Source: a virus. Taken from it: DNA of 64,000 bases. The translations under genes were made by a program, and so were the position numbers. The notes below the pieces were generated by a model. It saw nothing but the letters and a program-made list of their open reading frames with translations, did not search any database and was not told where the DNA came from. The stretch lies in IMG/VR virus record IMGVR_UViG_3300022602_000031, positions 96,001 to 160,000 of that record. The stretch is one strand, 5' to 3'. Below, piece by piece: positions 38,431 to 61,647 of this stretch; within the stretch, counting starts at the first letter, position 1; each line of letters opens with the position of its first letter.

Positions 38431-38515
38431 GCCCCGATGGTGGAATTGGTAGACACGCTGGTCTTAGAAGCCAGTGTCGTAAGACGTGCGAGTTCAAGTC
38501 TCGCTTGGGGCACCA
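38431..38515 (+). tRNA. tRNA-Leu(TAG)
   Basis: CTGGT-CTTAGAA-GCCAG, long variable arm, TTCAAGT, CCA. Confidence 0.95.
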
Positions 38516-38531
38516 ATTAAAAGGATCTTCA

Positions 38532-40109
38532 ATGAAGCGCATAGTAATTGTAGGCGCTGGTGCCGCAGGGTATTTTACCGCGGCCGCAATTAAACGTAAT
38601 AATCCAAATTTTGATGTTGTAGTGGTCTATGATCCTAATACTCCAATTATTGGAGTTGGGGAATCTATAAATTGGACCGCTCCGTTTTTTATGCATACGG
38701 TACTAGGATTAACCGATGACCAGTGGGTTAAAAAAGCTCGATCTATATTTAAAATAGGTACAGTATATCAGGATTGGAATAATACTACAAATCCATTTAT
38801 TGCCACAGCGTCGTTTAATGCCGACGTAGATATACTTAACACTTACACACCGGGCAACATTGCCGAATGTGTTGCTAACTCATTCCTACAACAAACTTAT
38901 TCTACTACAGATCTTTGGAGACATCTAGTTACCAAAGGACTATTGCCCAATGATCCTGACAATTCTTATTTGTCTTATTCTAGTGAAAATTATTGGCTAG
39001 TGGATAAAAATAAATTACCTATTAGAAAAGGTCAACTTTGGCCTACACTTAAAAACACCAGATCAAGATATAGTTATCATATCAATGCTCCAATAGTTGG
39101 GCAAGTGGTCCATGACCTAGTCGGCGTCCCAGCTGGAGTACGCACAATTCCAATGAAACTTAGGAATGTTGTATTAACTAGCACGGGCAACATTGATTAT
39201 CTATTATTAGATAACGAAGAACAAGTAACCGCTGATTTGTTTATTGACTGTTCAGGTTTTGCTAAAGTATTGGCCCAGCATCTTCCGTTTGAATTTGACA
39301 AGCTAGATGAGTATTTTAATGATACTGCTATAGTTGGGCCACACAGCTATCAACAACCATCAGAGCGACGTAGTCATGCTTATATTCGTGCTATGGATTG
39401 GGGCTGGCATTTTTCTGTGTCAATGGATACACGTAGTGGCGAAGGCTATGTGTTTAACAGTCGCCACGGAAAAAATGTTGATCGGCTAATAGAAGAATAT
39501 TACACAAAAACTGGCAAGACAGATGTTAATTTTAGAAAAATATCTTGGCAACCAGGATATCAAAAAAATCTATTTGTTAATAACTGTATAACCATTGGAC
39601 TAAGTCAGGGGTTTGGTGATGCGTTTGATGCTAATGCTTTTTCAAATACCATGGAGCAGATTACTGAAATGGTAAAACTATTAAAAGCCGACCCAGAGTT
39701 AGTATTTGAATGGAAAGATCATTTTAATCATTTTGTTAAAGTTCGTAATGATGATATAGTATTTCGCATACAGTCGGCATTTCATCTAGCACCTAGAAAT
39801 AACACTGAGTATTGGCAAGAATTAAAAATTGCCGAAAGTAAATTTAAAACTAGAGAAAAATTTCTAAACGCAATTAATGATCCTAATCGTAGATTTCTGC
39901 CAAATCTCAAAGACTCATTTTATAACCAAGGCGCTCTTATAACAATGGCATCGCATTATGGTATACCCAACGATTTTACTATTGACGTAGATGCCAAAGT
40001 TGAAAAACTTGCAGTTGTGTATTTCAATGAACTTAGACAGTATTTTCAAAATTTAGCCGATACTGGAGTTACATCTGAAAAACTTTATACCTCTTGGTAT
40101 GCAAAGTAA
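38532..40109 (+). CDS. Tryptophan-halogenase-like flavoprotein
   Basis: IVGAGAAG, IGVGES, FKIGTVYQDW (catalytic Lys position), FIDCSGF, WGWHFS. Confidence 0.8.
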   Translation: MKRIVIVGAGAAGYFTAAAIKRNNPNFDVVVVYDPNTPIIGVGESINWTAPFFMHTVLGLTDDQWVKKARSIFKIGTVYQDWNNTTNPFIATASFNADVDILNTYTPGNIAECVANSFLQQTYSTTDLWRHLVTKGLLPNDPDNSYLSYSSENYWLVDKNKLPIRKGQLWPTLKNTRSRYSYHINAPIVGQVVHDLVGVPAGVRTIPMKLRNVVLTSTGNIDYLLLDNEEQVTADLFIDCSGFAKVLAQHLPFEFDKLDEYFNDTAIVGPHSYQQPSERRSHAYIRAMDWGWHFSVSMDTRSGEGYVFNSRHGKNVDRLIEEYYTKTGKTDVNFRKISWQPGYQKNLFVNNCITIGLSQGFGDAFDANAFSNTMEQITEMVKLLKADPELVFEWKDHFNHFVKVRNDDIVFRIQSAFHLAPRNNTEYWQELKIAESKFKTREKFLNAINDPNRRFLPNLKDSFYNQGALITMASHYGIPNDFTIDVDAKVEKLAVVYFNELRQYFQNLADTGVTSEKLYTSWYAK

Positions 40110-42706: not shown

Positions 42707-43654
42707 ATGCAAAAAACAAACAAAATCAAGTGGCTTATTGCTCACGAACCCGTACATCTTTTCTTACGTACAGCTGAAGCTTTTGCCGCTGATGTCAAAG
42801 AAAAAACCAATGGTTTAATCGACATTGAAATTTACACAGCTACAGAATATGCTGAAAAATTCAACAATGGCGTAAAAGAAAACCCACTAGCACATATGGA
42901 ACGTGGCAACTTAGAAATGAGCCAGTTGCATATTAGTCAACTATGGAAATACAATGTTCCAGCATTTATGGCGTTAGAAATGCCATTCTTGTTTGAGAGT
43001 CATGATCACGCTACTCGTGTTCTTGAAGGTAATATTGGCCAAGATATGTTGCTAAGTCTTAAAGAAAAATCACCAGCACGTGGGCTAGCATTTACATACT
43101 CTGGTGGTTATCGTGTAATGGTTTCAAACGAAGAAGTTAACGAATTAGCAGACTTCCGTAATATGAGATTCTACACAGGTACAAACCCAATTGGTATGGA
43201 CACTATTGAAGCTATCGGTGGTCAGCCAGATCCACACGCGATTGACCACTTTTGGCAAACTGTACACAAAGAAGGTGACCGTCATGACGCAGTTGATACA
43301 ACATTGCCACGTATTTTAGCTACTGTTGATAAAACTAATAAGCGTTATATCACCGATACTAAACATAGCCTATTCCTAACAAGTATTATTGTTAGTGAAA
43401 CTTGGTGGGCAAGTTTGGATACAGAAACAAAAGAAACATTGGCCAAAGCCGCAGTTGACGCCGCACGTTTAGAGCGCAAGTGGTCAATTGATGATTCTGA
43501 AGTAGTTGCTCGTGATGCTGTTAAACACGGTCTGAGCTACAAAGAATTGGACAAATCCGAAATGGACAAGTTCCGTGCTTTAACTGAGCCATTGTACGCC
43601 AAATATGATTCCGTGTTTATGCCTGGTTTGATTGGTGGCATTATCCGCAGTTAA
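42707..43654 (+). CDS. dctP: DctP-like (TRAP solute-binding fold) protein without signal peptide, paralog 1
   Basis: FAADVKEKTNGLIDIEIY, ALEMPFLFESHDHA, GLAFTYSGGYR; hydrophilic N-terminus. Confidence 0.8.
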   Translation: MQKTNKIKWLIAHEPVHLFLRTAEAFAADVKEKTNGLIDIEIYTATEYAEKFNNGVKENPLAHMERGNLEMSQLHISQLWKYNVPAFMALEMPFLFESHDHATRVLEGNIGQDMLLSLKEKSPARGLAFTYSGGYRVMVSNEEVNELADFRNMRFYTGTNPIGMDTIEAIGGQPDPHAIDHFWQTVHKEGDRHDAVDTTLPRILATVDKTNKRYITDTKHSLFLTSIIVSETWWASLDTETKETLAKAAVDAARLERKWSIDDSEVVARDAVKHGLSYKELDKSEMDKFRALTEPLYAKYDSVFMPGLIGGIIRS

Positions 43655-43657
43655 TCA

Positions 43658-43686
43658 TTGCAATCCTGTTAGTTTTAAAGTATAAT
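43658..43686 (+). promoter_or_regulatory. sigma70-type promoter
   Basis: TTGCAA(43658-63), 17 bp, TATAAT(43681-86); ATG at 43695. Confidence 0.6.
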
Positions 43687-43694
43687 CAGATTCT

Positions 43695-44147
43695 ATGAAA
43701 GATAATTTTTTAGAATCTGATTCTCTATCCAATAAACGAATCTTAATTTTTGGTATAACCAGAATTCAAAGTCAACCTACTGTTCGGCAGATACAAGAAA
43801 TTGATACAGCCTATGGTGAGTTGCGTCAATATGTTAACGAAGTTTATTGCGTATCTTTTGATGATTTTTTATTATTTGATCAACTTACACCAAGGTTTTC
43901 AAAAACAATTAAATTTATTCAGAATGGTCAATTGTTACCCAGAGTTCAAGAACTATTAAATAAACGTGGGCACAAAGATTTTTTAAAACAGTATTGGCAG
44001 TTTGTATGTTGCATTAATAACGGACAGATTGAGTTTTATCAAGAACATCCGTTTGATAAATTGGATTTAGATCCCGATACAGTTAGAAAAATATATAAAC
44101 AAGTATCACCAGCAGTGGCATTAGAAAAATTAAAGGAAATAAAATGA
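43695..44147 (+). CDS. Degenerate peroxiredoxin/redoxin-fold protein, paralog 1
   Basis: NKRILIFGI...EVYCVSFDD...INNGQIEF resembles PRX5; no peroxidatic PxxxTxxC. Confidence 0.5.
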   Translation: MKDNFLESDSLSNKRILIFGITRIQSQPTVRQIQEIDTAYGELRQYVNEVYCVSFDDFLLFDQLTPRFSKTIKFIQNGQLLPRVQELLNKRGHKDFLKQYWQFVCCINNGQIEFYQEHPFDKLDLDPDTVRKIYKQVSPAVALEKLKEIK

Positions 44148-48153: not shown

Positions 48154-49602
48154 ATGAAATTTGAAATATATGCGGAACGTAACGCTAAAGATACTGCTGT
48201 CTTTTATTACGACAATCAAACAAATGTATTAACTAATCAACAAGGCGAAGAATTCAAATTTCCTGAAATGCCTACGTTTGCTGAACAGCCAACCAAGCCT
48301 TTTAGCAAAGAAGATCCTTTGCGTAAAAGCCGAGATGTTAATATGATTAAAATACAACTTGGTTTAAGTTGTAATTACAGTTGCGATTACTGTAGTCAAA
48401 AGTTTGTCGAACGTCCTCCTGAAACTAGTAAGAAAGATATTGACGCCTTTATGGCCAAGTTGGATGTGCTCAACATCACAGAAGAACGTGGATTACGTGT
48501 AGAGTTTTGGGGCGGTGAGCCGTTTGTATATTGGAAAACTCTTAAACCTCTAGCCGAAGCATTTGCTGAAAGATACAGTCATTGGAAAAAGCGTCCACAG
48601 TTTAGTGTAGTTACCAATGGCAGTTTGCTTACACGTGAAATCTGTAGCTGGTTATACTATATGGGATTTGGTGTAGGTATCAGCCACGATGGTCCTGGAC
48701 AGGCAGTACGTGGTCCGGATCCTTTTGAAGATCCAGAACGTAAAAAAGTCATATTAGAATTTTACAAAATCATGGCGCCGCAGAATCGCATTAGTTTTAA
48801 TGCTATGATGAATCGTAACAATACTAGCCGTCGCGCAATTAAAGAATATTTTGTAGAGCTCACTGGAGATCCTAATGTTAAGATCGGCGAAGGTGGATTC
48901 ATTGATGCGTATGATCAAGACGGTGCTAACAGTAGTTTAAATACCTTAGACGAACATTTTGCCTATCGTCGACAAGCATTTAATGATTTGTATACCACAG
49001 GTAAGAATTTACATTTTGATACGGTTTATACTAAACTAGATGCTTTTATTAGTAGCTTACTAGCACATCGTCCAGCCGAACTAGTTGGACAAAAATGCGG
49101 TATGGAAGAACCTGGCACAGTTGCATTAGACTTAAAAGGTAATATTGTTACCTGTCAGAATGTCAGCGTAATGGAAACCAGCAAGAACGGCGAAGCTCAT
49201 TTGGGTGGTAACTTAGACGACTACGACAACGTAGCACTCAAAGGAGTTACACATTGGAAATCTCGTACAAATAAAGTAAATTGTGCTGACTGCCCTGTTC
49301 TTCATTTGTGTAAGGGTAGTTGTATGTACCTAGATGGTGAGTTTTGGGATATCACCTGTAACAATGCCTACTCTGATAATATTCCTTTGTTTGCTATGGT
49401 TCTGAATGTAGTTACCAATGGATATATTCCTGTTACTATCAAAGCCGAAGGCTTACCATTGGAGCGACAAGATATCTGGGGTACAGTATACAAACACGAA
49501 GAAACTACAAAGAAAAAAATTATCCCAATTAAAGTAATATCAGAAAAGATAGGTACACTGGATGATATCGAAGTGTACGGTAAATCAAGGGTTGAACTAT
49601 GA
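48154..49602 (+). CDS. Radical SAM/SPASM peptide-maturase-like enzyme
   Basis: CNYSCDYC; FWGGEP; SPASM CG...GNIVTC and CADCPVLHLCKGSC (CX2CX5CX3C); possible N-terminal RRE-like segment. Confidence 0.88.
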   Translation: MKFEIYAERNAKDTAVFYYDNQTNVLTNQQGEEFKFPEMPTFAEQPTKPFSKEDPLRKSRDVNMIKIQLGLSCNYSCDYCSQKFVERPPETSKKDIDAFMAKLDVLNITEERGLRVEFWGGEPFVYWKTLKPLAEAFAERYSHWKKRPQFSVVTNGSLLTREICSWLYYMGFGVGISHDGPGQAVRGPDPFEDPERKKVILEFYKIMAPQNRISFNAMMNRNNTSRRAIKEYFVELTGDPNVKIGEGGFIDAYDQDGANSSLNTLDEHFAYRRQAFNDLYTTGKNLHFDTVYTKLDAFISSLLAHRPAELVGQKCGMEEPGTVALDLKGNIVTCQNVSVMETSKNGEAHLGGNLDDYDNVALKGVTHWKSRTNKVNCADCPVLHLCKGSCMYLDGEFWDITCNNAYSDNIPLFAMVLNVVTNGYIPVTIKAEGLPLERQDIWGTVYKHEETTKKKIIPIKVISEKIGTLDDIEVYGKSRVEL

Positions 49603-50462: not shown

Positions 50463-51647
50463 ATGAAATCGATCACAGTAGTGGGTGGCGGTACCGCAGG
50501 GTGGCTTACCGCACTATACTCTCTACAGTTATTCCCCAATAGCAAAGTAACGGTTATCGCCAGTAGCGAAATTGGAGTACTAGGTGCTGGCGAAGGAACT
50601 ACTCCGGCATTTAACGAGTTTGTAGAAAATCTAGGCATCGATGTCAATGACATTATTAAAAAAGCCGCTGGTACAGTTAAAAGCGGTATTAGATTTACCA
50701 ACTGGAATGGTCCGGATACTGGTTACTATCATCCGTTTTGGGAAGGCCGTACAGCTCTACACTTTGATGCTAATTTATTAGCTAAATTTTTACAGGACAT
50801 TGCCATTGGTAGAGGCATACAACTAATTGATGATGTAATCGTCGGTGTTGATACCCGCAGTCTAACTCTACAGTCTGGTCAGATACACTCATATGATTTT
50901 ATATTTGACTGTTCGGGCTTCCGTCGTTTAATTATAGGGCAACACTATAACAGTACCTGGAATTCTTATAGTCGGTCATTGCCAGCCAAACGTGCTATGC
51001 CTTTCTTTATCCCACACAATGGCAACATACCTGAATATACTGAAAGTATAGCAATGAAGTATGGATGGGTATGGCGAATACCTGTACAAGGACGCTATGG
51101 TTGTGGTTATGTATTTGACAGCGATTACATCACCGACGCACAGGCCCTGGCAGAAATACAAGAAAGTTTTGGTCCAGTAACTAGTCCACGTACATTTAAC
51201 TTTGCGGCTGGAAGTTACAGCCAAACTTGGATCAACAATGCAGTTGCCATTGGCCTAAGTGCTGGATTTACTGAACCATTAGAAGCTACTAGTATATGGA
51301 CTGCTATTACTTCGCTACAACATTTTAAAGATAAAATAGATGGCATAGACAGACCTGAGATTAAAGAACTCTACAATCGTGATATAGAAAAACTAAATCA
51401 AGATTTCATGACATTTATACACTTTCATTATTTGTCACAGCGCAACGACAGTGAGTTTTGGCAAGAATTTGCTACAAAGAATACTACACCAGACTTTATA
51501 CAACGTATGGGGCGCCGCGCTCCTACACAACAAGAGTTAGATTATCTTTATCAGGTTGAAAATCCTGGCGAACTATACAAAATTAAAACATACCCAGTCA
51601 ACAGTTGGTTAGCAGTTGGCAACGGCATAGGATACTTTAATGGCTAA
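50463..51647 (+). CDS. Flavin-dependent tryptophan-halogenase-like enzyme
   Basis: VVGGGTAGW, GAGEGT, VKSGIRFTNW, FDCSGF, GWVWRIP, EPLEAT. Confidence 0.88.
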   Translation: MKSITVVGGGTAGWLTALYSLQLFPNSKVTVIASSEIGVLGAGEGTTPAFNEFVENLGIDVNDIIKKAAGTVKSGIRFTNWNGPDTGYYHPFWEGRTALHFDANLLAKFLQDIAIGRGIQLIDDVIVGVDTRSLTLQSGQIHSYDFIFDCSGFRRLIIGQHYNSTWNSYSRSLPAKRAMPFFIPHNGNIPEYTESIAMKYGWVWRIPVQGRYGCGYVFDSDYITDAQALAEIQESFGPVTSPRTFNFAAGSYSQTWINNAVAIGLSAGFTEPLEATSIWTAITSLQHFKDKIDGIDRPEIKELYNRDIEKLNQDFMTFIHFHYLSQRNDSEFWQEFATKNTTPDFIQRMGRRAPTQQELDYLYQVENPGELYKIKTYPVNSWLAVGNGIGYFNG

Positions 51648-53115
51648 CTGTATTATATTAGCCGGAGGAACCTGGGTACCTGACTACACTAGTAAAATAC
51701 AACGTGGGCTCGGTCCATATCGTATTGCTACAGCACTAGAAACAGCTGGATATACTGTACAGGTTATAGATTTTGTTATACATTTAACCACAGAAGAAAT
51801 TATACAGGCCATCAGTAAGCATCTAGGTCCCGATACACTATGGGTAGGATTTAGTAGCACATTCTTTTGGAATACCAATCAGGTCAATCCCGAGCAGTCT
51901 TGGTTAGATAGAATGTACTGGACAGACTACAGTAATGTAAAGCCTATTATTGATTATATAAAACAAACAAGCTCAGCTCGGTTAGTCTATGGAGGCGCCA
52001 AAACACCTTTTCTAGTAGGCACAGACAAAAATATTGATCATTATGTGGTTGGCTATGCTGATACAGCCATAGTTGAACTTACTCAATCTATAGAACGCAA
52101 GCAACCAGCAGAACTGGTAATAGACAGCACCGTATACCCAGCACCTAAAATGGACAGTTTAACTACTTGCTGGCATACAATATTACCTGGCGAAGGGTTG
52201 CCAATTGAACTAGCACGTGGTTGTATTTTTAAATGTAAATTTTGTAGTTATCCTTTGCTAGGAAAAAAGAAAGGAACCTATCTAATAGACACCAACTTGG
52301 TTAGAGATCAATTATTGGCCAACTACGAGCAACACGGAACAACTCGTTATTACATTACCGATGATACTTTTAACGATGACAATGACAAAATAGAAGCATT
52401 GCATCGTGTGTTTACTGATTTACCTTTTAAAATTCAATTTAGTTGTTATCTAAGATTAGACCTACTACATAAACATCCGCATCAGGCTGACCTGTTATCG
52501 GATATGGGACTGATAGGTACATACTTTGGTATTGAAAGTCTACTGCCAGAGAGTGCTAGAGCAATAGGCAAAGGCCTACACCCTAACAAAGTTAAGGATA
52601 GACTGTATTGGCTACAAGAACGTTGGCATCAACAGGTTAATGTTGCCGCAGGATTTATACTAGGACTACCATACGATACAACCGAGTACTTTGATAGTTT
52701 AATCAACTGGTGTATGGAAGCTGATAATCCATTACAACATATATCATTTTATGCGTTGATGTTTTATAACAAACAGATTAACGATGATGCCAGAGAAGAT
52801 AGGCTACGTCCTTATTATTCTGAGTTTACCTTACACCCAGAAATATACGGATATGAATTTGACAAAGACAGCATAATGAGCTGGAGCTTACCCAGTCAAC
52901 ATTTGAGTTATGATAAGTGTTTGTCTATTGCGGACTACTACAACGGCCTGGTTGCGGATCGCAACAAAATTAGCGATTTCCAGCTGATATCGCACTTAAA
53001 TATAGGTATACCGTTGGCAGATATGTACGAATTAACACAGCAAGAGATTAACCGCCGTTACGACATTAACCAACTAAATCAACAGCGTTTAATTGACTAT
53101 AAACAACTATTATGA
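51640..53115 (+). CDS. B12-binding-domain radical SAM enzyme (class B methyltransferase-like)
   Basis: N-terminal GPYRIATALE...WVGFSST...VYGG; ARGCIFKCKFC; DDTFN; FGIES. Confidence 0.8.
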   Translation: MANCIILAGGTWVPDYTSKIQRGLGPYRIATALETAGYTVQVIDFVIHLTTEEIIQAISKHLGPDTLWVGFSSTFFWNTNQVNPEQSWLDRMYWTDYSNVKPIIDYIKQTSSARLVYGGAKTPFLVGTDKNIDHYVVGYADTAIVELTQSIERKQPAELVIDSTVYPAPKMDSLTTCWHTILPGEGLPIELARGCIFKCKFCSYPLLGKKKGTYLIDTNLVRDQLLANYEQHGTTRYYITDDTFNDDNDKIEALHRVFTDLPFKIQFSCYLRLDLLHKHPHQADLLSDMGLIGTYFGIESLLPESARAIGKGLHPNKVKDRLYWLQERWHQQVNVAAGFILGLPYDTTEYFDSLINWCMEADNPLQHISFYALMFYNKQINDDAREDRLRPYYSEFTLHPEIYGYEFDKDSIMSWSLPSQHLSYDKCLSIADYYNGLVADRNKISDFQLISHLNIGIPLADMYELTQQEINRRYDINQLNQQRLIDYKQLL

Positions 53116-56941: not shown

Positions 56942-58036
56942 ATGCTATATCTAGTTACCCACCCACTTAAACGTCCAGCAGAAAAACAATTAGATTTACT
57001 ATTAGGTACGCTGGACTTATTTGGCGTTGACTATCAGCAGGTGCCTATAGATCAAATACCCGCAGGAAGCACAGTTATTACTGATTGTTTTATAATGGAA
57101 ACCCCGTCGGGTGATCCCGGGCACGACATAGCACAGCAGATTATCGATGCCTGTACTGGTAGAGATTGTAAACTAGTGTTTTACTACCCTAGCGAAAGTT
57201 ATGCTACACTATCAGCTAGTTTTACGCCTACCGCACATTTATGTCTAGAGCGTAGTATTGAAGCACATTTGATCAAATGCGGTGATTGGGACATTATAGG
57301 ATTTACTAATCATAATTTGCCTGAATTTTTTGCCTGGGTTATCAGTAGTGATTTTAATCTAGCCAGGTTAGCCTACACACAGCAGGCAATAGATCACAAT
57401 CCCAAGACACATCGTTTTTTGTTTTTAAACGGGGAACGTCGCCAAGACCGAGAATATTTTTTTAATCTCTACAAAGATGCTGGCCTACTAGAGTCTAGTA
57501 TATGGAGTTATAGATCAGGTAAAAGCAGTGAAGGCTTTGGCCCCAATGAAGATTGGCCGGATCCTTTTGTACACCCTGACTTCCGTTTCTATGCTTATTA
57601 TCCTAGTCATTTTTATCGTACTAAGATTAGCATCATCAGCGAAACTACACAGATGGAGTTCTTTCCTACAGAAAAAACTTATAAGAGCCTAATGCTTGGA
57701 CACCCATTTGTATTATACGGTGGTAGAGGCAGTTTAGGTAAGCTACAACAACTGGGATTTCGCACATTCGGCCCGTGGATTGATGAAAGCTATGATTTAG
57801 CTGACTATCCCTTGGAACGTGCTGATCGTACTATTCCATTACTTGATCAAATTCCCGAAGATATCATTGAGCTAACACAAGAAGTACGTGATCACAATCG
57901 ACGACAATTTCACGTTGTAGCCCAAAGCATTTATCCTAAATTATTGAATATATTGCAAGATATTGATCGTAGTGTTATAATCAATGAAAGTTTTACAGTT
58001 AATACTAGCATATTAAACAAGTATTTTTTGAATTAA
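56942..58036 (+). CDS. Glycosyltransferase-like protein (paralog 3)
   Basis: FLFLNGERR, IISETT, TEKTYKSLMLGHPF, GFRTFGPWIDESYD. Confidence 0.5.
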   Translation: MLYLVTHPLKRPAEKQLDLLLGTLDLFGVDYQQVPIDQIPAGSTVITDCFIMETPSGDPGHDIAQQIIDACTGRDCKLVFYYPSESYATLSASFTPTAHLCLERSIEAHLIKCGDWDIIGFTNHNLPEFFAWVISSDFNLARLAYTQQAIDHNPKTHRFLFLNGERRQDREYFFNLYKDAGLLESSIWSYRSGKSSEGFGPNEDWPDPFVHPDFRFYAYYPSHFYRTKISIISETTQMEFFPTEKTYKSLMLGHPFVLYGGRGSLGKLQQLGFRTFGPWIDESYDLADYPLERADRTIPLLDQIPEDIIELTQEVRDHNRRQFHVVAQSIYPKLLNILQDIDRSVIINESFTVNTSILNKYFLN

Positions 58037-58039
58037 AAC

Positions 58040-58133
58040 GGAGAGCTGGCCGAGTGGTCGAAGGCACTTCCCTGCTAAGGAAGCATACGGGCTTAAACCT
58101 GTATCGAGGGTTCGAATCCCTCGCTCTCCGCCA
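58040..58133 (+). tRNA. tRNA-Ser(GCT)
   Basis: CTTCC-CTGCTAA-GGAAG, long variable arm, G73, CCA. Confidence 0.95.
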
Positions 58134-58180
58134 AGTTTGTGATAAATAAATACAATAAACACAAATCCCAGGAGTTTTCC

Positions 58181-59146
58181 ATGAATCAAACAAAAACAAT
58201 ACGTTGGGTATTATACCACGAACCGATTGATCTTTTTATTCGCACAGCAGAAGCATTCAGCAAAGAAATCAATCGTTTAACTGATGGTCGCATCAACGTA
58301 GAAATTTACAGCACCAACGAATTTGCTGAAAAATTTAAAAAAGGTGTAAACGTAGAGCCAATGGTTTGGATGCAGGCTGGCGATTGCGAAATGAGCCAGG
58401 TTCAAATTGGCGAAATTGCTAACTGGCATAGCCCAGATTTTTGGGCATTAGAACTACCATTTTTATTCCGCGATCATGATCACGCTACTCGAGCACTAGA
58501 AGGCCCAATTGGGCAAAGTATGTTAAAGAATTTAGAAAATACCAGCCCAGCACGTGGATTGGCATTTACTTACTCAGGTGGATATCGTTGTCTAGCAGTC
58601 GACCGTGAAATTAATACAGCAGAAGGTCTTAAAGGACTAACAGTTATTACTCAAAAAAATCCAATTACAATCGAGACAGCTGAAGCATTTGGTCTAGTTC
58701 CGGTGCCGGTTAATGTTAAAGATCATCTTAACAAAGATAGAAATAAACACACAAACTTCAACGGTAATAACGCAGTTGAAACAACATTACCGCGCTACGA
58801 AGCAGAAGCAAAAACCGAAGCTCATCGTTACATAGCCGATACACGTCACAATATGTATTTGACAAGTATTATCATTGCTAAAGAATTTTGGAATGACTTA
58901 TCTGCTGAAGATCAAGAATTTATTCAACAGGCCGCACTACACAGCAGTCGTTTAGAGCGTCAATGGTCAGTGGCTGATGCTAATAAAATTTCTGACAGCA
59001 AAGAAGAACAAGATAAGTTGGGTGTTACATACAACAATTTTAGCAAAGAAGAAACTGCTAAATTAAAACAAGCAACAGCACATTTGTATGAAAAATACTC
59101 ACAATTTTTTACTCCAGATCTAGTAGATGGAATTATTAAATCCTAA
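58181..59146 (+). CDS. dctP: DctP-like protein without signal peptide, paralog 2
   Basis: MNQTKTIRWVLYHEP...ALELPFLFRDHDHA...GLAFTYSGGYR; TAAATA at 58143-48. Confidence 0.8.
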   Translation: MNQTKTIRWVLYHEPIDLFIRTAEAFSKEINRLTDGRINVEIYSTNEFAEKFKKGVNVEPMVWMQAGDCEMSQVQIGEIANWHSPDFWALELPFLFRDHDHATRALEGPIGQSMLKNLENTSPARGLAFTYSGGYRCLAVDREINTAEGLKGLTVITQKNPITIETAEAFGLVPVPVNVKDHLNKDRNKHTNFNGNNAVETTLPRYEAEAKTEAHRYIADTRHNMYLTSIIIAKEFWNDLSAEDQEFIQQAALHSSRLERQWSVADANKISDSKEEQDKLGVTYNNFSKEETAKLKQATAHLYEKYSQFFTPDLVDGIIKS

Positions 59147-59771
59147 TATCGTTTTTTCAAAATACACAGACAATAAATTAATTGATATAACAGCTCAGGA
59201 TTTGTTTAGTAATAGACGAATCCTGATTTGCTCTGTGGTCCGCCCTCGCGAAAATCTAGATCAAAAATATGCTGATTACATTCAAAGTTTGATTCCGTTT
59301 TATAAACAACACGGAGTCGATGATGTGTATCTTATTAATTCGTCGGCTGGTAAATTTGGCCTGGTTAGATTAGAAAAAAATCATCCACAGATTACCAGCC
59401 TGTACGATAATAATGCTGACTTTGTTCGAGCATTAGCTACACAGTTGAATAAAAAACCCACAGTTGACACTTTGTCCAAATACTGGAGTTATCAGGTTTT
59501 AGTTAATAATGGTAAAGTTGAGCAGTTTTACGAACAACCAACTGAAAATTATATCAAACATATTATTGATGCCGGATATAAAATTGATCTGGGCAACCAT
59601 AAGTTTTTTGCTCTAGAAGGAGATCGGGCATTACATCGCCCTTCGTTGCGGGTAGAAGAACAGCAGTTTGAGCACATAAACATAGAACAAAAACACCTAA
59701 TCACCGGAGCCATTATGTATTTTAATTTATGGCCAAATAACTTGTTGTATAACTATCTAAAGAGTGTATAA
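59127..59771 (+). CDS. Degenerate peroxiredoxin/redoxin-fold protein, paralog 2
   Basis: DLFSNRRILICSV...GVDDVYLINS...YDNNADFV...VNNGKVEQF. Confidence 0.55.
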   Translation: MELLNPNIVFSKYTDNKLIDITAQDLFSNRRILICSVVRPRENLDQKYADYIQSLIPFYKQHGVDDVYLINSSAGKFGLVRLEKNHPQITSLYDNNADFVRALATQLNKKPTVDTLSKYWSYQVLVNNGKVEQFYEQPTENYIKHIIDAGYKIDLGNHKFFALEGDRALHRPSLRVEEQQFEHINIEQKHLITGAIMYFNLWPNNLLYNYLKSV

Positions 59772-59782
59772 TTAACATTGTA

Positions 59783-60050
59783 TTAATAAGTTTGGACAGA
59801 CGGTGTGGCGACCATCTGATACTTGTGGTAGTGTGAGTATTGGCAGGCAGTTGAGCCCCGTGGCATGGAAATGTAATATCGGGTACTCCCGAGGGTATAA
59901 GTAATTTTAGAGCCAAGAAAACGTTGCTAGATTCCATGAAAAACACCCGTGAGGGTTAGCCTTTCGTTGCCGGGTCGCACCCAGCAGGCATTGTGGTCCA
60001 CAGTCGAAAAGCAGATTTTAGTCTGTCCAAACTTATTAAACGGGGTAGCC
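59783..60050 (+). ncRNA. Candidate ~260-nt multibranched non-coding RNA
   Basis: Perfect 19-bp terminal helix 59783-59801/60021-60039; 8-bp second helix 59802-09/59974-81; several internal hairpins; no ORF. Confidence 0.6.
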
Positions 60051-60086
60051 CTTGATAAATAATAACATATACTTGGAGTTTCCCAA

Positions 60087-61043
60087 ATGAGTCAAACAAG
60101 AAAAATCCGTTGGTTAATCGCACATGAGCCCGTAGATCTGTTCCTACGCACAGCCGAAGCATTTCAACAAAAAATCGCCGAATTAACTAACAACGCTTTT
60201 GAAGTAGAAATCTTCACAGCCAGCGAATACAAGACAAAATTTAATAGTTACGATAAAAAAGCCGGCCCAATGGTTGAATTGGACGAAGGCAACATCGAAA
60301 TGAGCCAAATGCATATTACTGAACTAGCAGTATGGCATAACCCAGATTTTTACGCATTAGAAATGCCGTTTATTTTCCGTGATCATGATCACGCTCAACG
60401 TGTACTAGAAGGTCAAATTGGCCGTACAATGTTGGATAATTTAGAACACGAAAGTCCAGCTAAAGGTCTAGCATTTACTTACTCGGGTGGCTTCCGTTGT
60501 GTTGCCAGCGAAGATGAAGTTACCAGCATTGACCAGTTTAAAGGCGCCAAGTTTGCTACAGCGGTTAATCCAGTTACTATTGATACCATTGAAGCATTAG
60601 GTGCAATTCCTGATGTATTCAGTATCAAAGACTTTGCCAAAAAATTAACTGAAGAAGGTAATGATGCCCAGGCATTAGAAACTACTATTCCTCGTTACCT
60701 AGCACAATTTAAAACATCAAACAAGAAATTCTTGTTGAATACCAAACACAGTTTATTCTTAACTACAATTATTGTTGGTAAGAAGTTCTGGAACGAACTA
60801 GATGAAACAACACAGGCCAAGTTCCGTGAAGCCTGTTTGTATGCTAGTCGTTTAGAACGTCAATGGTCAGTTGAAGAAGCAGATGAATTTGCTGATAAAT
60901 TAGATCACAGCGATATTGGTGTTACATACGCAGAATTAAGCGATGCTGAAACTACTAAGTTTAAAGAACTTGTTCAACCACTATATGACAAATACCGTGA
61001 TTTCTTTTATCCCGGTTTAGTTGATGGAATCATTCAAAGCTAA
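60087..61043 (+). CDS. dctP: DctP-like protein without signal peptide, paralog 3
   Basis: MSQTRKIRWLIAHEP...ALEMPFIFRDHDHA...GLAFTYSGGFR; TAAATA at 60056-61. Confidence 0.8.
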   Translation: MSQTRKIRWLIAHEPVDLFLRTAEAFQQKIAELTNNAFEVEIFTASEYKTKFNSYDKKAGPMVELDEGNIEMSQMHITELAVWHNPDFYALEMPFIFRDHDHAQRVLEGQIGRTMLDNLEHESPAKGLAFTYSGGFRCVASEDEVTSIDQFKGAKFATAVNPVTIDTIEALGAIPDVFSIKDFAKKLTEEGNDAQALETTIPRYLAQFKTSNKKFLLNTKHSLFLTTIIVGKKFWNELDETTQAKFREACLYASRLERQWSVEEADEFADKLDHSDIGVTYAELSDAETTKFKELVQPLYDKYRDFFYPGLVDGIIQS

Positions 61044-61566
61044 TTTACTCCCTGTTAGTTTTAAAACCACAATCAACAACCGAGAGGCAACTCTCGGTTT
61101 TGTTGACGTCTTTGCGAATAGACGTATAGTAATTTACAGTCTACCGACGTTACTGACTAAATTTGCCTGGGATCAATTACGTGCCTATGAAGAAGCTAAT
61201 CAACAGATTTTAAATTCTGGAGTCGATCAAATTTATTGTATAAACAGTAACGCTGAAAGTCGTATGCTGGCATATTACGCATCTAAGTTCAGCCAAACAG
61301 TAGTAGCATTACCTGATTTAAACACTACAGTATTACAGGCCATACAACAAGAATTTAGCATCGATAAAGAATTAAAAGACCTAGCAAGGCTATGGCAATA
61401 CATTATTATCGTCAACGATGGCGTCCCAGAAAAGTTGTTTAGTAATCCACTTAAAAAGAATATGCCATTAAGAATTGCCAAAAGCCGTCTGTATCAATAT
61501 CATAATCTAGGGCCAGATGTGGTATTAAAATATTTGACCACACAAGAAAAAATAAGTACAATATAG
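61024..61566 (+). CDS. Degenerate peroxiredoxin/redoxin-fold protein, paralog 3
   Basis: DVFANRRIVIYSLP...GVDQIYCINSN...ALPDLN...IVNDGVPEKLF. Confidence 0.6.
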   Translation: MESFKANLLPVSFKTTINNREATLGFVDVFANRRIVIYSLPTLLTKFAWDQLRAYEEANQQILNSGVDQIYCINSNAESRMLAYYASKFSQTVVALPDLNTTVLQAIQQEFSIDKELKDLARLWQYIIIVNDGVPEKLFSNPLKKNMPLRIAKSRLYQYHNLGPDVVLKYLTTQEKISTI

Positions 61567-61573
61567 TTTTAAT

Positions 61574-61647
61574 GCCCCTTTAGTTAAATGGTATAACGAT
61601 TGATTTGTAATCATTAATTGGCAGTTCGATTCTGTCAAGGGGCACCA
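61574..61647 (+). tRNA. tRNA-Thr(TGT)
   Basis: GCCCCTT/AAGGGGC, loop TTTGTAA, CCA. Confidence 0.93.

What the first reader, a model, noticed from the sequence alone, without database searches (positions are those of the whole stretch)
59783..60050. Large intergenic RNA with a 19-bp terminal helix and RNase-P-like outer architecture
A perfect helix TTAATAAGTTTGGACAGAC/GTCTGTCCAAACTTATTAA is followed directly by an 8-bp helix (GGTGTGGC/GTCGCACC), an interrupted hairpin (59810-52), CATGGAA/TTCCATG, TCGGG/CCCGA, ACCC-GTGA-GGGT, and a hairpin (59990-60004) before an A-rich linker into the closing strand. This order parallels P1/P2/P3/P19 of RNase P RNA, which would suit a phage with many tRNA precursors. 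However, the canonical P4 (GAAAGUCC/GGCUUA) is absent. A possible pseudoknot GCCCCG(59855-60)/CGGGGT(60041-46) exists instead. A likely promoter (TTGTAT-16-TATAAT, 59745-72) lies just upstream. It is a candidate novel ncRNA or highly diverged ribozyme.
Basis: partly seen in the sequence, partly recalled or inferred. Interest (0 to 1): 0.75.

Follow-up and report, generated by a model that had tools for sequence, protein, structure and literature searches.

The report
New structured RNA in phage tRNA island
The stretch is a real gene for a ~257-base, elaborately folded non-coding RNA found only in the tRNA gene clusters of giant T4-like lake phages. It matches no known RNA family, is not RNase P, and its job is still unknown.

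Summary
The 19-bp terminal helix (59783-59801 / 60021-60039) is real. It is the longest close inverted repeat (arms up to 500 nt apart) in the 64-kb window.

I found 55 matches to the element, 38 of them distinct sequences, all on lake or freshwater phage contigs. Two of these are complete ~355-kb genomes with one copy each. A hand-refined 14-helix fold is paired in 94.5% of cells. 40 of 79 pairs show compensatory changes, far above slid and shuffled controls.

Kept: P1, TCGGG/CCCGA and ACCC-GTGA-GGGT. Refuted by covariation: the 8-bp "P2", CATGGAA/TTCCATG, the 59990 hairpin and the GCCCCG/CGGGGT pseudoknot.

The ancestral position is tRNA-Ser - RNA - tRNA-Thr. The DctP/redoxin gene pairs are cassettes inserted on either side. 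The downstream pair has its own T4-late-type promoter, so the RNA is not its leader.

The RNA has a conserved sigma70-type promoter, or it abuts the CCA of tRNA-Ser. Four lake metatranscriptomes hold identical contigs that cover only the RNA.

There is no Rfam match even at E<=10, no match to T4 rnaC/rnaD, and no RnpA, SmpB, Ro60 or RtcB. It is a new stable RNA family of unknown function. The RNase P reading is unsupported.

This scan already flagged the same family on other DNA (e1-5812928).

The parts
59745..59772 (+). Promoter of the RNA: TTGTAT-16-TATAAT, with TG just before the -10. It lies inside the 3' end of the upstream redoxin-like ORF.
   Evidence: Read. Relatives without an abutting tRNA carry TTGACA/TTGCAT-17-TATAAT/TATACT ending 7-11 nt before P1. 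The window's -35 matches only 3 of 6, and one search did not list it.
59783..59801 (+). P1, 5' strand. It is 19 bp perfect in the window and can extend by 2 bp to 59781/60041.
   Evidence: 15 of 21 P1 pairs show compensatory changes in 38 homologs.
59802..59813 (+). P1a hairpin: GGU / ACC stem with the invariant loop GUGGCG (59805-59810).
   Evidence: All 3 pairs covary (GC/AU, UA/CG/AU). The loop is invariant in 38 sequences.
59814..59828 (+). P2 5' strand AUCUG, junction AU, and P3 5' strand ACU(U)GUGG with a bulged U.
   Evidence: Invariant apart from the covarying pair 59823-60002 (AU18/UA13/CG2/GC2) and the P2 pair 59815-60015 (UA 31 / UG 7).
59830..59844 (+). P4a 5' strand AGUGU, loop-E/S-turn-like GAGUA, and P4 5' strand UUGGC.
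   Evidence: All 5 P4 pairs covary. P4a pair 59833-59922 shows GC/CG/UA/AU. One subgroup (L004-L006, L051) replaces the AGUA/GAA loop with Watson-Crick pairs.
59855..59896 (+). P5 (GCCC/GGGU) enclosing P6 (GCAU-GGAA-AUGU, mostly a GNRA loop) and P7 (UCGGG-UACU-CCCGA).
   Evidence: 3 of 4 P6 pairs covary. The P7 closing pair is AU20/GC18. P5 is invariant or changes on one side only.
59897..59933 (+). Conserved junction A-AAG-AAUUUUA, P4 3' strand GCCAA, GAAA of the loop-E-like motif, P4a 3' strand ACGUU, and junction GCUAGAUU.
59934..59996 (+). Domain II: P8 (CCAUGA/UUGUGG) enclosing P9 (ACCC-GUGA-GGGU, GNRA loop) and P10 (GCCU..GCCGGG-UCGCA-CCCAGC..AGGC, loop with conserved U-N-G-C).
   Evidence: P8 pairs change CG->UA and AU->GC (x5). 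P9 has 3 of 4 pairs covarying and P10 has 6 of 10.
59998..60020 (+). P3 3' strand CCACAGU, invariant junction CGAAAAG, P2 3' strand CAGAU, and junction UUUA.
   Evidence: Together with AU (59819-20) this forms an almost invariant (one A-to-G change in 38 sequences) 2 x 7 nt internal loop.
60021..60039 (+). P1, 3' strand.
60053..60060 (+). GATAAATA, a T4-late-promoter-like motif (consensus TATAAATA) about 26 nt before the start codon of the DctP-like gene. It belongs to the downstream gene, not to the RNA.
   Evidence: The same (T)ATAAATA sits between the RNA and the DctP gene in L005, L076, L050, L063, L069, L081, L077, L009 and L030.
58040..58133 (+). tRNA-Ser(GCU), the ancestral 5' neighbour of the RNA. 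It is separated from the RNA here by an inserted DctP/redoxin gene pair (58139-59771).
   Evidence: In L017, L079, L024, L026, L023, L081 and L009 the RNA starts 0-6 nt after the CCA of this tRNA.
61574..61647 (+). tRNA-Thr(UGU), the ancestral 3' neighbour. It is separated here by the second DctP/redoxin pair (60087-61566).
   Evidence: In L017, L079, L024, L036, L020, L018, L080, L048 and L035 it starts about 10-20 nt after P1.

Best explanation
SHOWN: 59783-60039 (+ strand) is an independent gene for a ~257-nt stable, compactly folded non-coding RNA. It belongs to a new family confined, as far as searched, to one clade of T4-like jumbo phages of lakes. Each genome has one copy, in the tRNA island at the joint between tRNA-Ser and tRNA-Thr.

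The fold:
- A 19-23-bp closing helix P1.
- A 3-bp hairpin with the invariant loop GUGGCG.
- P2 and P3, separated by an almost invariant AU / CGAAAAG internal loop.
- A three-way junction leading to two multi-helix domains, which carry three mostly GNRA-type hairpin loops and a loop-E-like motif.

INFERRED (maturation): The RNA is made by host RNA polymerase, either from its own sigma70-type promoter or as a co-transcript with tRNA-Ser. It is cut free by the enzymes that mature the neighbouring tRNAs: 3' processing at the CCA of tRNA-Ser, and RNase P at the 5' end of tRNA-Thr. RNase III may also cut within the long P1. P1 then shields both ends, so the RNA accumulates.

MOST LIKELY FUNCTION (speculative, about 40%): It acts in trans as a folded scaffold or decoy. 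Through its invariant loops it would bind a protein, or a tRNA end, belonging to the translation and tRNA-takeover programme carried by the tRNA island. It would not act as a regulator of the adjacent genes.

My confidence that it is a real, discrete, trans-acting structured RNA is about 0.9. The 0.5 given as the confidence covers the whole statement, including maturation and mode of action.
For: Fold:
- 38 distinct homologs.
- 79 pairs in 14 helices, 94.5% of cells paired, 40 pairs with changes on both sides.
- Covariation score 0.307, against 0.04-0.07 when partners are slid and 0.147 in shuffles; 0 of 500 shuffles reach it.
- Many G-U pairs on the + strand fix the transcribed strand.

Not coding and not repeated:
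- Frame-breaking indels occur in the alignment.
- One copy in G000 and in two complete relatives.

Promoter: TTGACA/TTGCAT-17-TATAAT/TATACT at a fixed distance in relatives.

Context:
- tRNA-Ser abuts the 5' end and tRNA-Thr follows about 10-20 nt after the 3' end in many relatives.
- T4 itself has tRNA-Ser directly followed by tRNA-Thr.

Expression:
- Four lake metatranscriptome runs from four studies hold 197-242-nt contigs with no differences from the window. They cover only 59791-60031, with no cover of 59300-59783 or 60048-60600.
- DNA runs hold all sampled words, while RNA runs hold only 38-54% of them.

Constraint: the RNA is 76-82% identical in nucleotides where the adjacent DctP gene is 65-73%.

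Independence from the downstream gene:
- About 40% of distinct contexts lack the DctP gene downstream.
- Where it is present, a T4-late-type TATAAATA lies between the RNA and the gene.
Against: - No partner, ligand or activity is identified.
- The family is narrow: all members are at least about 70% identical and the effective sequence number is 1.36. Much of the invariance could therefore reflect recent common descent.
- Contigs cannot show transcript ends or strand, and an RNA library can contain DNA (caveats).
- No terminator follows the RNA, so read-through into the DctP gene from the RNA's promoter is possible.
- The window's own -35 is weak.
- One subgroup has replaced the loop-E-like motif with plain pairs, so that motif is not essential.
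Confidence: 0.5

Rival explanations
1. It is a highly diverged RNase P RNA, or an analogous ribozyme, that matures the phage's own pre-tRNAs.
For: It sits inside a cluster of 23 tRNA genes. It has paired ends, a compact multi-helix fold with GNRA loops, and a conserved helix with a bulged U next to an A-rich invariant strand.
Against: - No RNase P family (bacterial A/B, archaeal, type T, nuclear, MRP) scores at E<=10, in the window or in two divergent homologs.
- There is no GAAAGUCC / GGCUUA-type P4.
- The A-rich strand and the bulged U lie on opposite strands, unlike P4.
- There is no RnpA in two complete relatives.
- Hosts have their own RNase P.
Confidence: 0.04
2. It is a cis-acting leader or riboswitch that controls the downstream DctP-like/redoxin-like operon.
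For: In the window and in about 60% of distinct contexts, the DctP gene starts 40-70 nt after P1 on the same strand. No terminator lies between them.
Against: - In L017, L079, L024, L036, L020, L018, L080, L048, L035 and L013 the next gene is tRNA-Thr or an unrelated ORF.
- A T4-late-type promoter lies between the RNA and the DctP gene.
- A 19-23-bp closing helix is too stable to act as a switching helix.
- No alternative pairing sequesters the ribosome-binding site.
- RNA-library contigs stop at the RNA and do not run into the gene.
Confidence: 0.04
3. It is a self-assembling RNA-only particle, a smaller analogue of the ROOL and GOLLD RNAs of phages.
For: [quoted passage not shown] It also has invariant exposed loops and GNRA loops.
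Against: - It is 257 nt, against about 580 and 800 nt.
- No Rfam ROOL or GOLLD hit.
- I found no conserved self-complementary loop that could form a kissing contact. UUUUAAAA occurs in many members but not in the window.
Confidence: 0.1
4. It is only a processing spacer: a long 'punctuation' stem that helps cut the tRNA transcript, with no function once released.
For: The P1 length suits RNase III. The element lies exactly between two tRNAs. Possible ends in mid-P1 appear in one RNA contig.
Against: A spacer would not need about 220 nt of interior with 13 further covarying helices and invariant loops. It would not need its own promoter. It would not be more conserved than neighbouring genes.
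Confidence: 0.05
5. It is a DNA-level element: a miniature transposon with terminal inverted repeats, a replication origin or a packaging site.
For: It has perfect 19-bp terminal inverted repeats whose sequence is itself well conserved.
Against: - One copy per genome, always at the same locus.
- No target-site duplication is evident.
- Interior helices covary with G-U pairs that work on one strand only.
- It is present in RNA libraries without its flanks.
Confidence: 0.02

Closest known systems
Phage T4 stable RNAs rnaC (species 1, 139 nt) and rnaD (species 2, 119 nt)
   Same: Both are non-tRNA stable RNAs encoded inside the tRNA cluster of a T4-type myovirus and have unknown function. [quoted passage not shown] The window is a T4-like phage.
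   Different: - No homology: the family model scores under 5 bits on rnaC/rnaD, against 200-290 bits for members.
- It is twice the size.
- It sits between tRNA-Ser and tRNA-Thr, not after tRNA-Arg.
- It has a sigma70-type promoter, whereas T4 RNAC/RNAD are classed as late RNAs.
ROOL and GOLLD large ornate RNAs
   Same: Both are phage or prophage RNAs 'often near tRNA islands', with elaborate covarying folds, no known protein partner and unknown function.
   Different: They are unrelated in sequence and fold (no Rfam hit). This RNA is 2-3 times smaller and fully nested as far as seen. Assembly into cages is untested.
Bacterial RNase P RNA
   Same: The 5' and 3' ends pair in P1, the RNA is a multi-domain compact fold, and it is linked to tRNA genes.
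   Different: No P4 consensus, no CR-I to CR-V, no model match, a different helix order, and no phage RnpA.
rRNA-type processing stalks (long stems formed by flanks of 16S/23S rRNA and cut by RNase III)
   Same: A helix of 19 bp or more, formed by the two ends of a structured RNA embedded in a polycistronic stable-RNA transcript. This comparison rests on established knowledge, not on a test here.
   Different: Cleavage was not shown. The only hint is breaks at 59791/2 and 60031 in two RNA-library contigs.

Membership tests
RNase P RNA (Rfam RF00010/RF00011/RF00373/RF02357 and relatives) | Match to a family covariance model | tested here: not met
   cmscan with permissive filters at E<=10: 0 matches in window 59650-60150, 0 in L035, and only unrelated noise in L013.
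RNase P RNA | P4 helix with conserved CR-I (GAAAGUCC-type) and CR-V (..GGCUUA-type) strands | tested here: not met
   Neither motif is in the sequence. The conserved core strands are AUCUGAUACNUGUGG and CCACNGUCGAAAAGCAGAU.
RNase P RNA | Pre-tRNA 5' leader cleavage | not testable with these tools
   Needs an in vitro assay.
tmRNA | tRNA-like acceptor/T-arm ends, a tag reading frame, and the SmpB partner | tested here: not met
   ARAGORN finds no tmRNA. There is no Rfam hit and no SmpB in G000, G001 or G002.
Y RNA / YrlA | A Ro60 (TROVE) partner gene, often with RtcB; model match | tested here: not met
   No TROVE and no RtcB in G000-G002. No Rfam hit.
GOLLD / ROOL | Match to the family model | tested here: not met
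GOLLD / ROOL | Phage-encoded, next to a tRNA island | tested here: met
GOLLD / ROOL | Homo-oligomeric cage | not testable with these tools
   Needs biophysics or cryo-EM.
T4 rnaC / rnaD | Sequence or structure homology | tested here: not met
   Model R1, run with filters off over the T4 tRNA region, gave at most 12 bits. Those hits were bare AT hairpins outside rnaC/rnaD.
T4 rnaC / rnaD | Non-tRNA stable RNA inside the tRNA cluster of a T4-like phage | tested here: met
Riboswitch / cis leader | Constant linkage to the regulated gene, plus an expression platform | tested here: not met
   The downstream gene differs in about 40% of contexts. A promoter lies between the RNA and the DctP gene. There is no terminator.
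Miniature inverted-repeat transposable element | Several dispersed copies | tested here: not met
   One copy per genome.

The most novel reading that the evidence does not exclude
The RNA is a new kind of tRNA-directed RNA machine. After excision from the tRNA transcript, possibly by an RNase III-type cut in mid-P1 and perhaps followed by end-joining into a circle, its invariant GUGGCG loop (which contains UGGC) pairs with the GCCA 3' end of tRNAs with a G discriminator, such as the adjoining tRNA-Ser. T-box RNAs (UGGN) and RNase P use this mode of recognition. The almost invariant AU/CGAAAAG loop would form an active or binding site. The RNA could then shield, sort or chemically act on the phage tRNA pool during takeover or against tRNA-targeting host defences.
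Probability: 0.1. Interest if true: 0.9.

Novelty: categorically new. Interest (0 to 1): 0.7.

Why it matters
Large, intricately folded RNAs with no assigned function are rare. In the past they have turned out to be ribozymes, riboswitches or RNA-only assemblies.

This one is compact at about 257 nt and has a well-determined secondary structure. Environmental RNA data give a hint of expression. Its genomic setting is sharply defined: the tRNA-Ser/tRNA-Thr joint of T4-like jumbo phages. It is therefore directly amenable to in vitro transcription, structure determination and partner fishing.

It adds a third, unrelated example to the unexplained association of ornate RNAs (GOLLD, ROOL) with phage tRNA islands. 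It also revives the 50-year-old open question of what the T4 tRNA-cluster stable RNAs do.

Tried and rejected
- Rfam at gathering score over the whole window returned only 23 tRNAs. Rfam at E<=10 over the locus and over two divergent homologs returned nothing meaningful.
- blastn of the locus against 50,697 phage records found no match.
- L008 is an exact 18-mer match but a chance hit inside a coding region.
- L007 is a more distant phage (DctP 40% identical). It has no RNA upstream of DctP, and none was found in its 117-kb record, which is 32% complete.
No cellular homolog was seen, but absence is not proven.
- The gapped core pattern CTGATAC-N(168-198)-GTCGAAAAGCAG in viral contigs found five new loci, none a member by the covariance model. 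About 17 of the 55 metagenome pattern hits were also chance matches.
- I looked by eye for tertiary pairs: the GUGGCG loop with the P10 loop, UACU with AGUA, and the P10 loop with GCNAGA. None was consistent across variants. The all-against-all covariation list beyond the helices is dominated by phylogenetic noise.
- The alternative pairing UAGU/GCUA was rejected because its partner column is U16/A12/G10.
- The neighbouring conserved ORF 56942-58036 was tested as a possible partner. It has a GT-B glycosyltransferase-like fold and is not an evident RNA-binding protein.
- The 2023 catalogue of 10,006 viral structured-RNA candidates (PMC10690425) has no supplementary files held as text. I could not check whether this motif is listed there.
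- Parts of the window without RNA-contig cover are treated only as a weak hint.

Full report
**1. What is at the coordinates**

The window is bases 96001-160000 of a 180-kb IMG/VR virus record that is about 50% complete. It carries a T4-type large terminase, a gp15-like sheath stabiliser and a tail sheath, plus 23 tRNA genes. It is therefore part of a T4-like jumbo phage.

The finding lies in a 315-nt gap between a redoxin-like ORF (59127-59771) and a DctP-like ORF (60087-61043). A paralogous DctP/redoxin pair lies just upstream.

The 19-bp perfect inverted repeat 59783-59801 / 60021-60039 is real. It is one of only two close inverted repeats of 15 nt or more in the 64 kb, and the only perfect one. 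Both strands fold better than shuffles, with z of -3.4 and -3.8. That result alone does not pick a strand or a structure.

**2. Homologs**

- A protein-anchored search and four exact-pattern scans of IMG/VR, followed by one scan of JGI metagenomes, gave 55 nhmmer matches (E from 1e-88 to 1e-13). 38 of them are distinct full-length sequences, aligned as A5.
- All come from viral or metagenome contigs, and several contigs are 100-357 kb long. Runs holding the window's sequence are labelled lake or freshwater.
- Two relatives are essentially complete genomes, of 357 kb (100% complete) and 354 kb (98%). Each has exactly one copy, as does the window's record.
- I found no member outside this clade. 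The phage GenBank collection gave nothing. A looser gapped core pattern also gave nothing new.
- The family is narrow, with all members at least about 70% identical.

**3. Structure**

RNAalifold on 4, 13 and 38 sequences converged. I refined the fold by hand and counted it.

- It has 79 pairs in 14 helices, with 94.5% of cells paired.
- 40 pairs show changes on both sides.
- The covariation score is 0.307, against 0.04-0.07 when the 3' partners are slid by 1-3 columns. None of 500 shuffles reaches the observed values.

In window coordinates the fold is:

| Element | Coordinates and sequence |
|---|---|
| P1 | 59783-59801 / 60021-60039 |
| P1a | 59802-04 / 59811-13, closing the invariant loop GUGGCG |
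| P2 | AUCUG / CAGAU |
| Internal loop | AU versus CGAAAAG, almost invariant (one A-to-G change in 38 sequences) |
| P3 | 59821-28 / 59998-60004, with a bulged U and one strongly covarying pair |
| Domain I | P4a, a loop-E-like GAGUA/GAAA, P4, and P5 enclosing hairpins P6 and P7 |
| Domain II | P8 enclosing hairpins P9 and P10 |

P3 leads into a three-way junction that carries Domains I and II. P6 and P9 mostly carry GNRA loops, and an optional inserted hairpin in some relatives carries GCAA.

Numerous G-U pairs exist only on the + strand, for example 59832-59923 and 59938-59992. The RNA is therefore the + strand.

The thermodynamic optimum for the window sequence alone (-90 kcal/mol) differs from the comparative fold (-74 kcal/mol). 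This explains why a reader working from one sequence picked some wrong helices.

**4.

Kept:
- P1.
- TCGGG/CCCGA.
- ACCC-GTGA-GGGT.
- The promoter.

Refuted:
- The 8-bp GGTGTGGC/GTCGCACC helix.
- CATGGAA/TTCCATG.
- The 59990-60004 hairpin.
- The 59810-52 hairpin.
- The GCCCCG/CGGGGT pseudoknot. Its 3' half lies outside the conserved element and is absent in every relative.

**5. Context**

In many relatives the RNA starts 0-6 nt after the encoded CCA of tRNA-Ser. tRNA-Thr(UGU) then starts about 10-20 nt after P1. In T4 itself, tRNA-Ser is directly followed by tRNA-Thr. The RNA thus occupies that joint.

The DctP/redoxin pairs are variable inserts:
- between tRNA-Ser and the RNA in some relatives;
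- between the RNA and tRNA-Thr in others;
- on both sides in the window;
- absent from the joint in L017, L079, L018 and L020.

Where the RNA does not abut a tRNA, a sigma70-type promoter (TTGACA or TTGCAT, 17 nt, TATAAT or TATACT) ends 7-11 nt before P1. The window has the weaker TTGTAT-16-TATAAT.

Where the DctP gene follows, a T4-late-type (T)ATAAATA motif lies between the RNA and the start codon (60053-60060 in the window). The RNA is therefore an independent transcription unit or a tRNA co-transcript. It is not the leader of the DctP gene.

**6. Expression**

- DNA runs from lakes hold all sampled words of 59700-60120. Six lake metatranscriptome runs hold 38-54% of them.
- In four of those runs, from four studies, the matching contigs are 197-242 nt long and identical to the window. 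They lie wholly inside 59791-60031, with no contig on 59300-59783 or 60048-60600. A second variant of the RNA is also present.
- Contigs cannot give ends, strand or level, and RNA libraries can hold DNA. This is a hint, not proof, but it is what an abundant small stable RNA would give.
- One contig runs to 60031 and then continues with the letters of 59792-59800. Another begins to match at 59791. Both breaks fall at one base pair of P1, about 10 bp from its inner end. I could not separate three readings: mid-P1 ends (an RNase III-like cut) joined by template switching, a circular form, or an assembly artefact.

**7. What it is not**

- No Rfam family matches at E<=10, in the window or in two divergent members.
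- ARAGORN finds no tmRNA.
- The complete relatives have no RnpA, SmpB, Ro60 or RtcB.
- The family model R1 gives only noise on the T4 tRNA region, including rnaC and rnaD.
- It is single-copy and syntenic, so it is not a transposon.
- The RNase P reading rested on an outer helix order that covariation does not uphold, and no P4 consensus exists.

**8. How it most likely works**

Shown: it is a discrete, conserved, highly structured RNA gene in the tRNA island.

Inferred:
- Host polymerase transcribes it early, or it is co-transcribed with tRNA-Ser.
- The tRNA-maturing nucleases release it, possibly together with RNase III acting on P1.
- The long P1 protects it.

Speculative: the invariant GUGGCG loop, the AU/CGAAAAG loop and the junction strands look like contact surfaces. 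The GNRA loops suggest a compact tertiary fold. I consider a trans-acting scaffold or decoy for a protein or tRNA end of the translation-takeover programme the most likely role, at about 40%.

All 23 tRNAs of the window encode CCA, and 6 have a G discriminator, including both tRNA-Ser. The UGGC-GCCA pairing idea is therefore possible but untested.

The RNA is somewhat better conserved (76-82% nucleotide identity) than the adjacent DctP gene (65-73%) in 11 of 12 comparisons.

**9. Novelty**

This is a new RNA family with no detectable relative. The nearest analogies are by setting only: T4 RNAC/RNAD, whose 'biological roles are unknown' (PMC3014915), and GOLLD/ROOL, 'often near tRNA islands' (bioRxiv 10.1101/2024.12.08.627333).

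The same family was already noted by this scan on other genomes (e1-5812928 and first-reader notes). My analysis reached the same conclusion independently. It adds the refined fold, the promoter comparison, the late promoter of the downstream gene, the metatranscriptome contigs and the negative tests.

Noticed in passing
window 42707-44147, 58139-59771, 60087-61566: Three tandem gene pairs, each a signal-peptide-less DctP-like protein followed by a redoxin-like protein. Each pair sits directly beside tRNA genes. Relatives have them in different positions or lack them at the tRNA-Ser/RNA/tRNA-Thr joint, so they behave as insertable cassettes. The pair after the RNA has a T4-late-type TATAAATA promoter.
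   Followed up: partly
window 58040-58133; L017:7049-7141, L079:6459-6548, L026:1941-2033, L004:944-1033: The tRNA-Ser next to the RNA has anticodon GCU in the window, L024 and L009. In at least eight relatives it has ACU (A34), with the rest of the anticodon loop unchanged. An A34 tRNA-Ser is unusual and may relate to escape from anticodon nucleases or to altered decoding.
   Followed up: partly
window 59791-59792 and 60031: A metatranscriptome contig ends its match at 60031 and continues with the sequence of 59792-59800. Another starts matching at 59791 after 4 unmatched letters. This could reflect mid-P1 ends, a circular form or an artefact.
   Followed up: no
window 56942-58036: A conserved 364-aa ORF between tRNA-Met and tRNA-Ser, with no Pfam or PHROG hit. 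It is predicted (pLDDT 72, pTM 0.74) to have a GT-B glycosyltransferase-like fold. Matches include exostosin, TarM/SdgB and, at lower rank, T4 beta-glucosyltransferase.
   Followed up: partly
window 38505-40109, 50463-51647, 48154-49602, 51640-53115: Two tryptophan-halogenase-like genes and two radical-SAM genes (one with a B12-binding domain) are interspersed with the tRNA arrays. This is an unusual auxiliary set for a phage.
   Followed up: no
window 43684-43722: A 17-nt, 88% complementary hairpin with a 5-nt loop spans the junction between the first DctP-like gene and its redoxin-like partner.
   Followed up: no
all 23 tRNA genes of the window: Every tRNA gene encodes its 3' CCA.
   Followed up: yes
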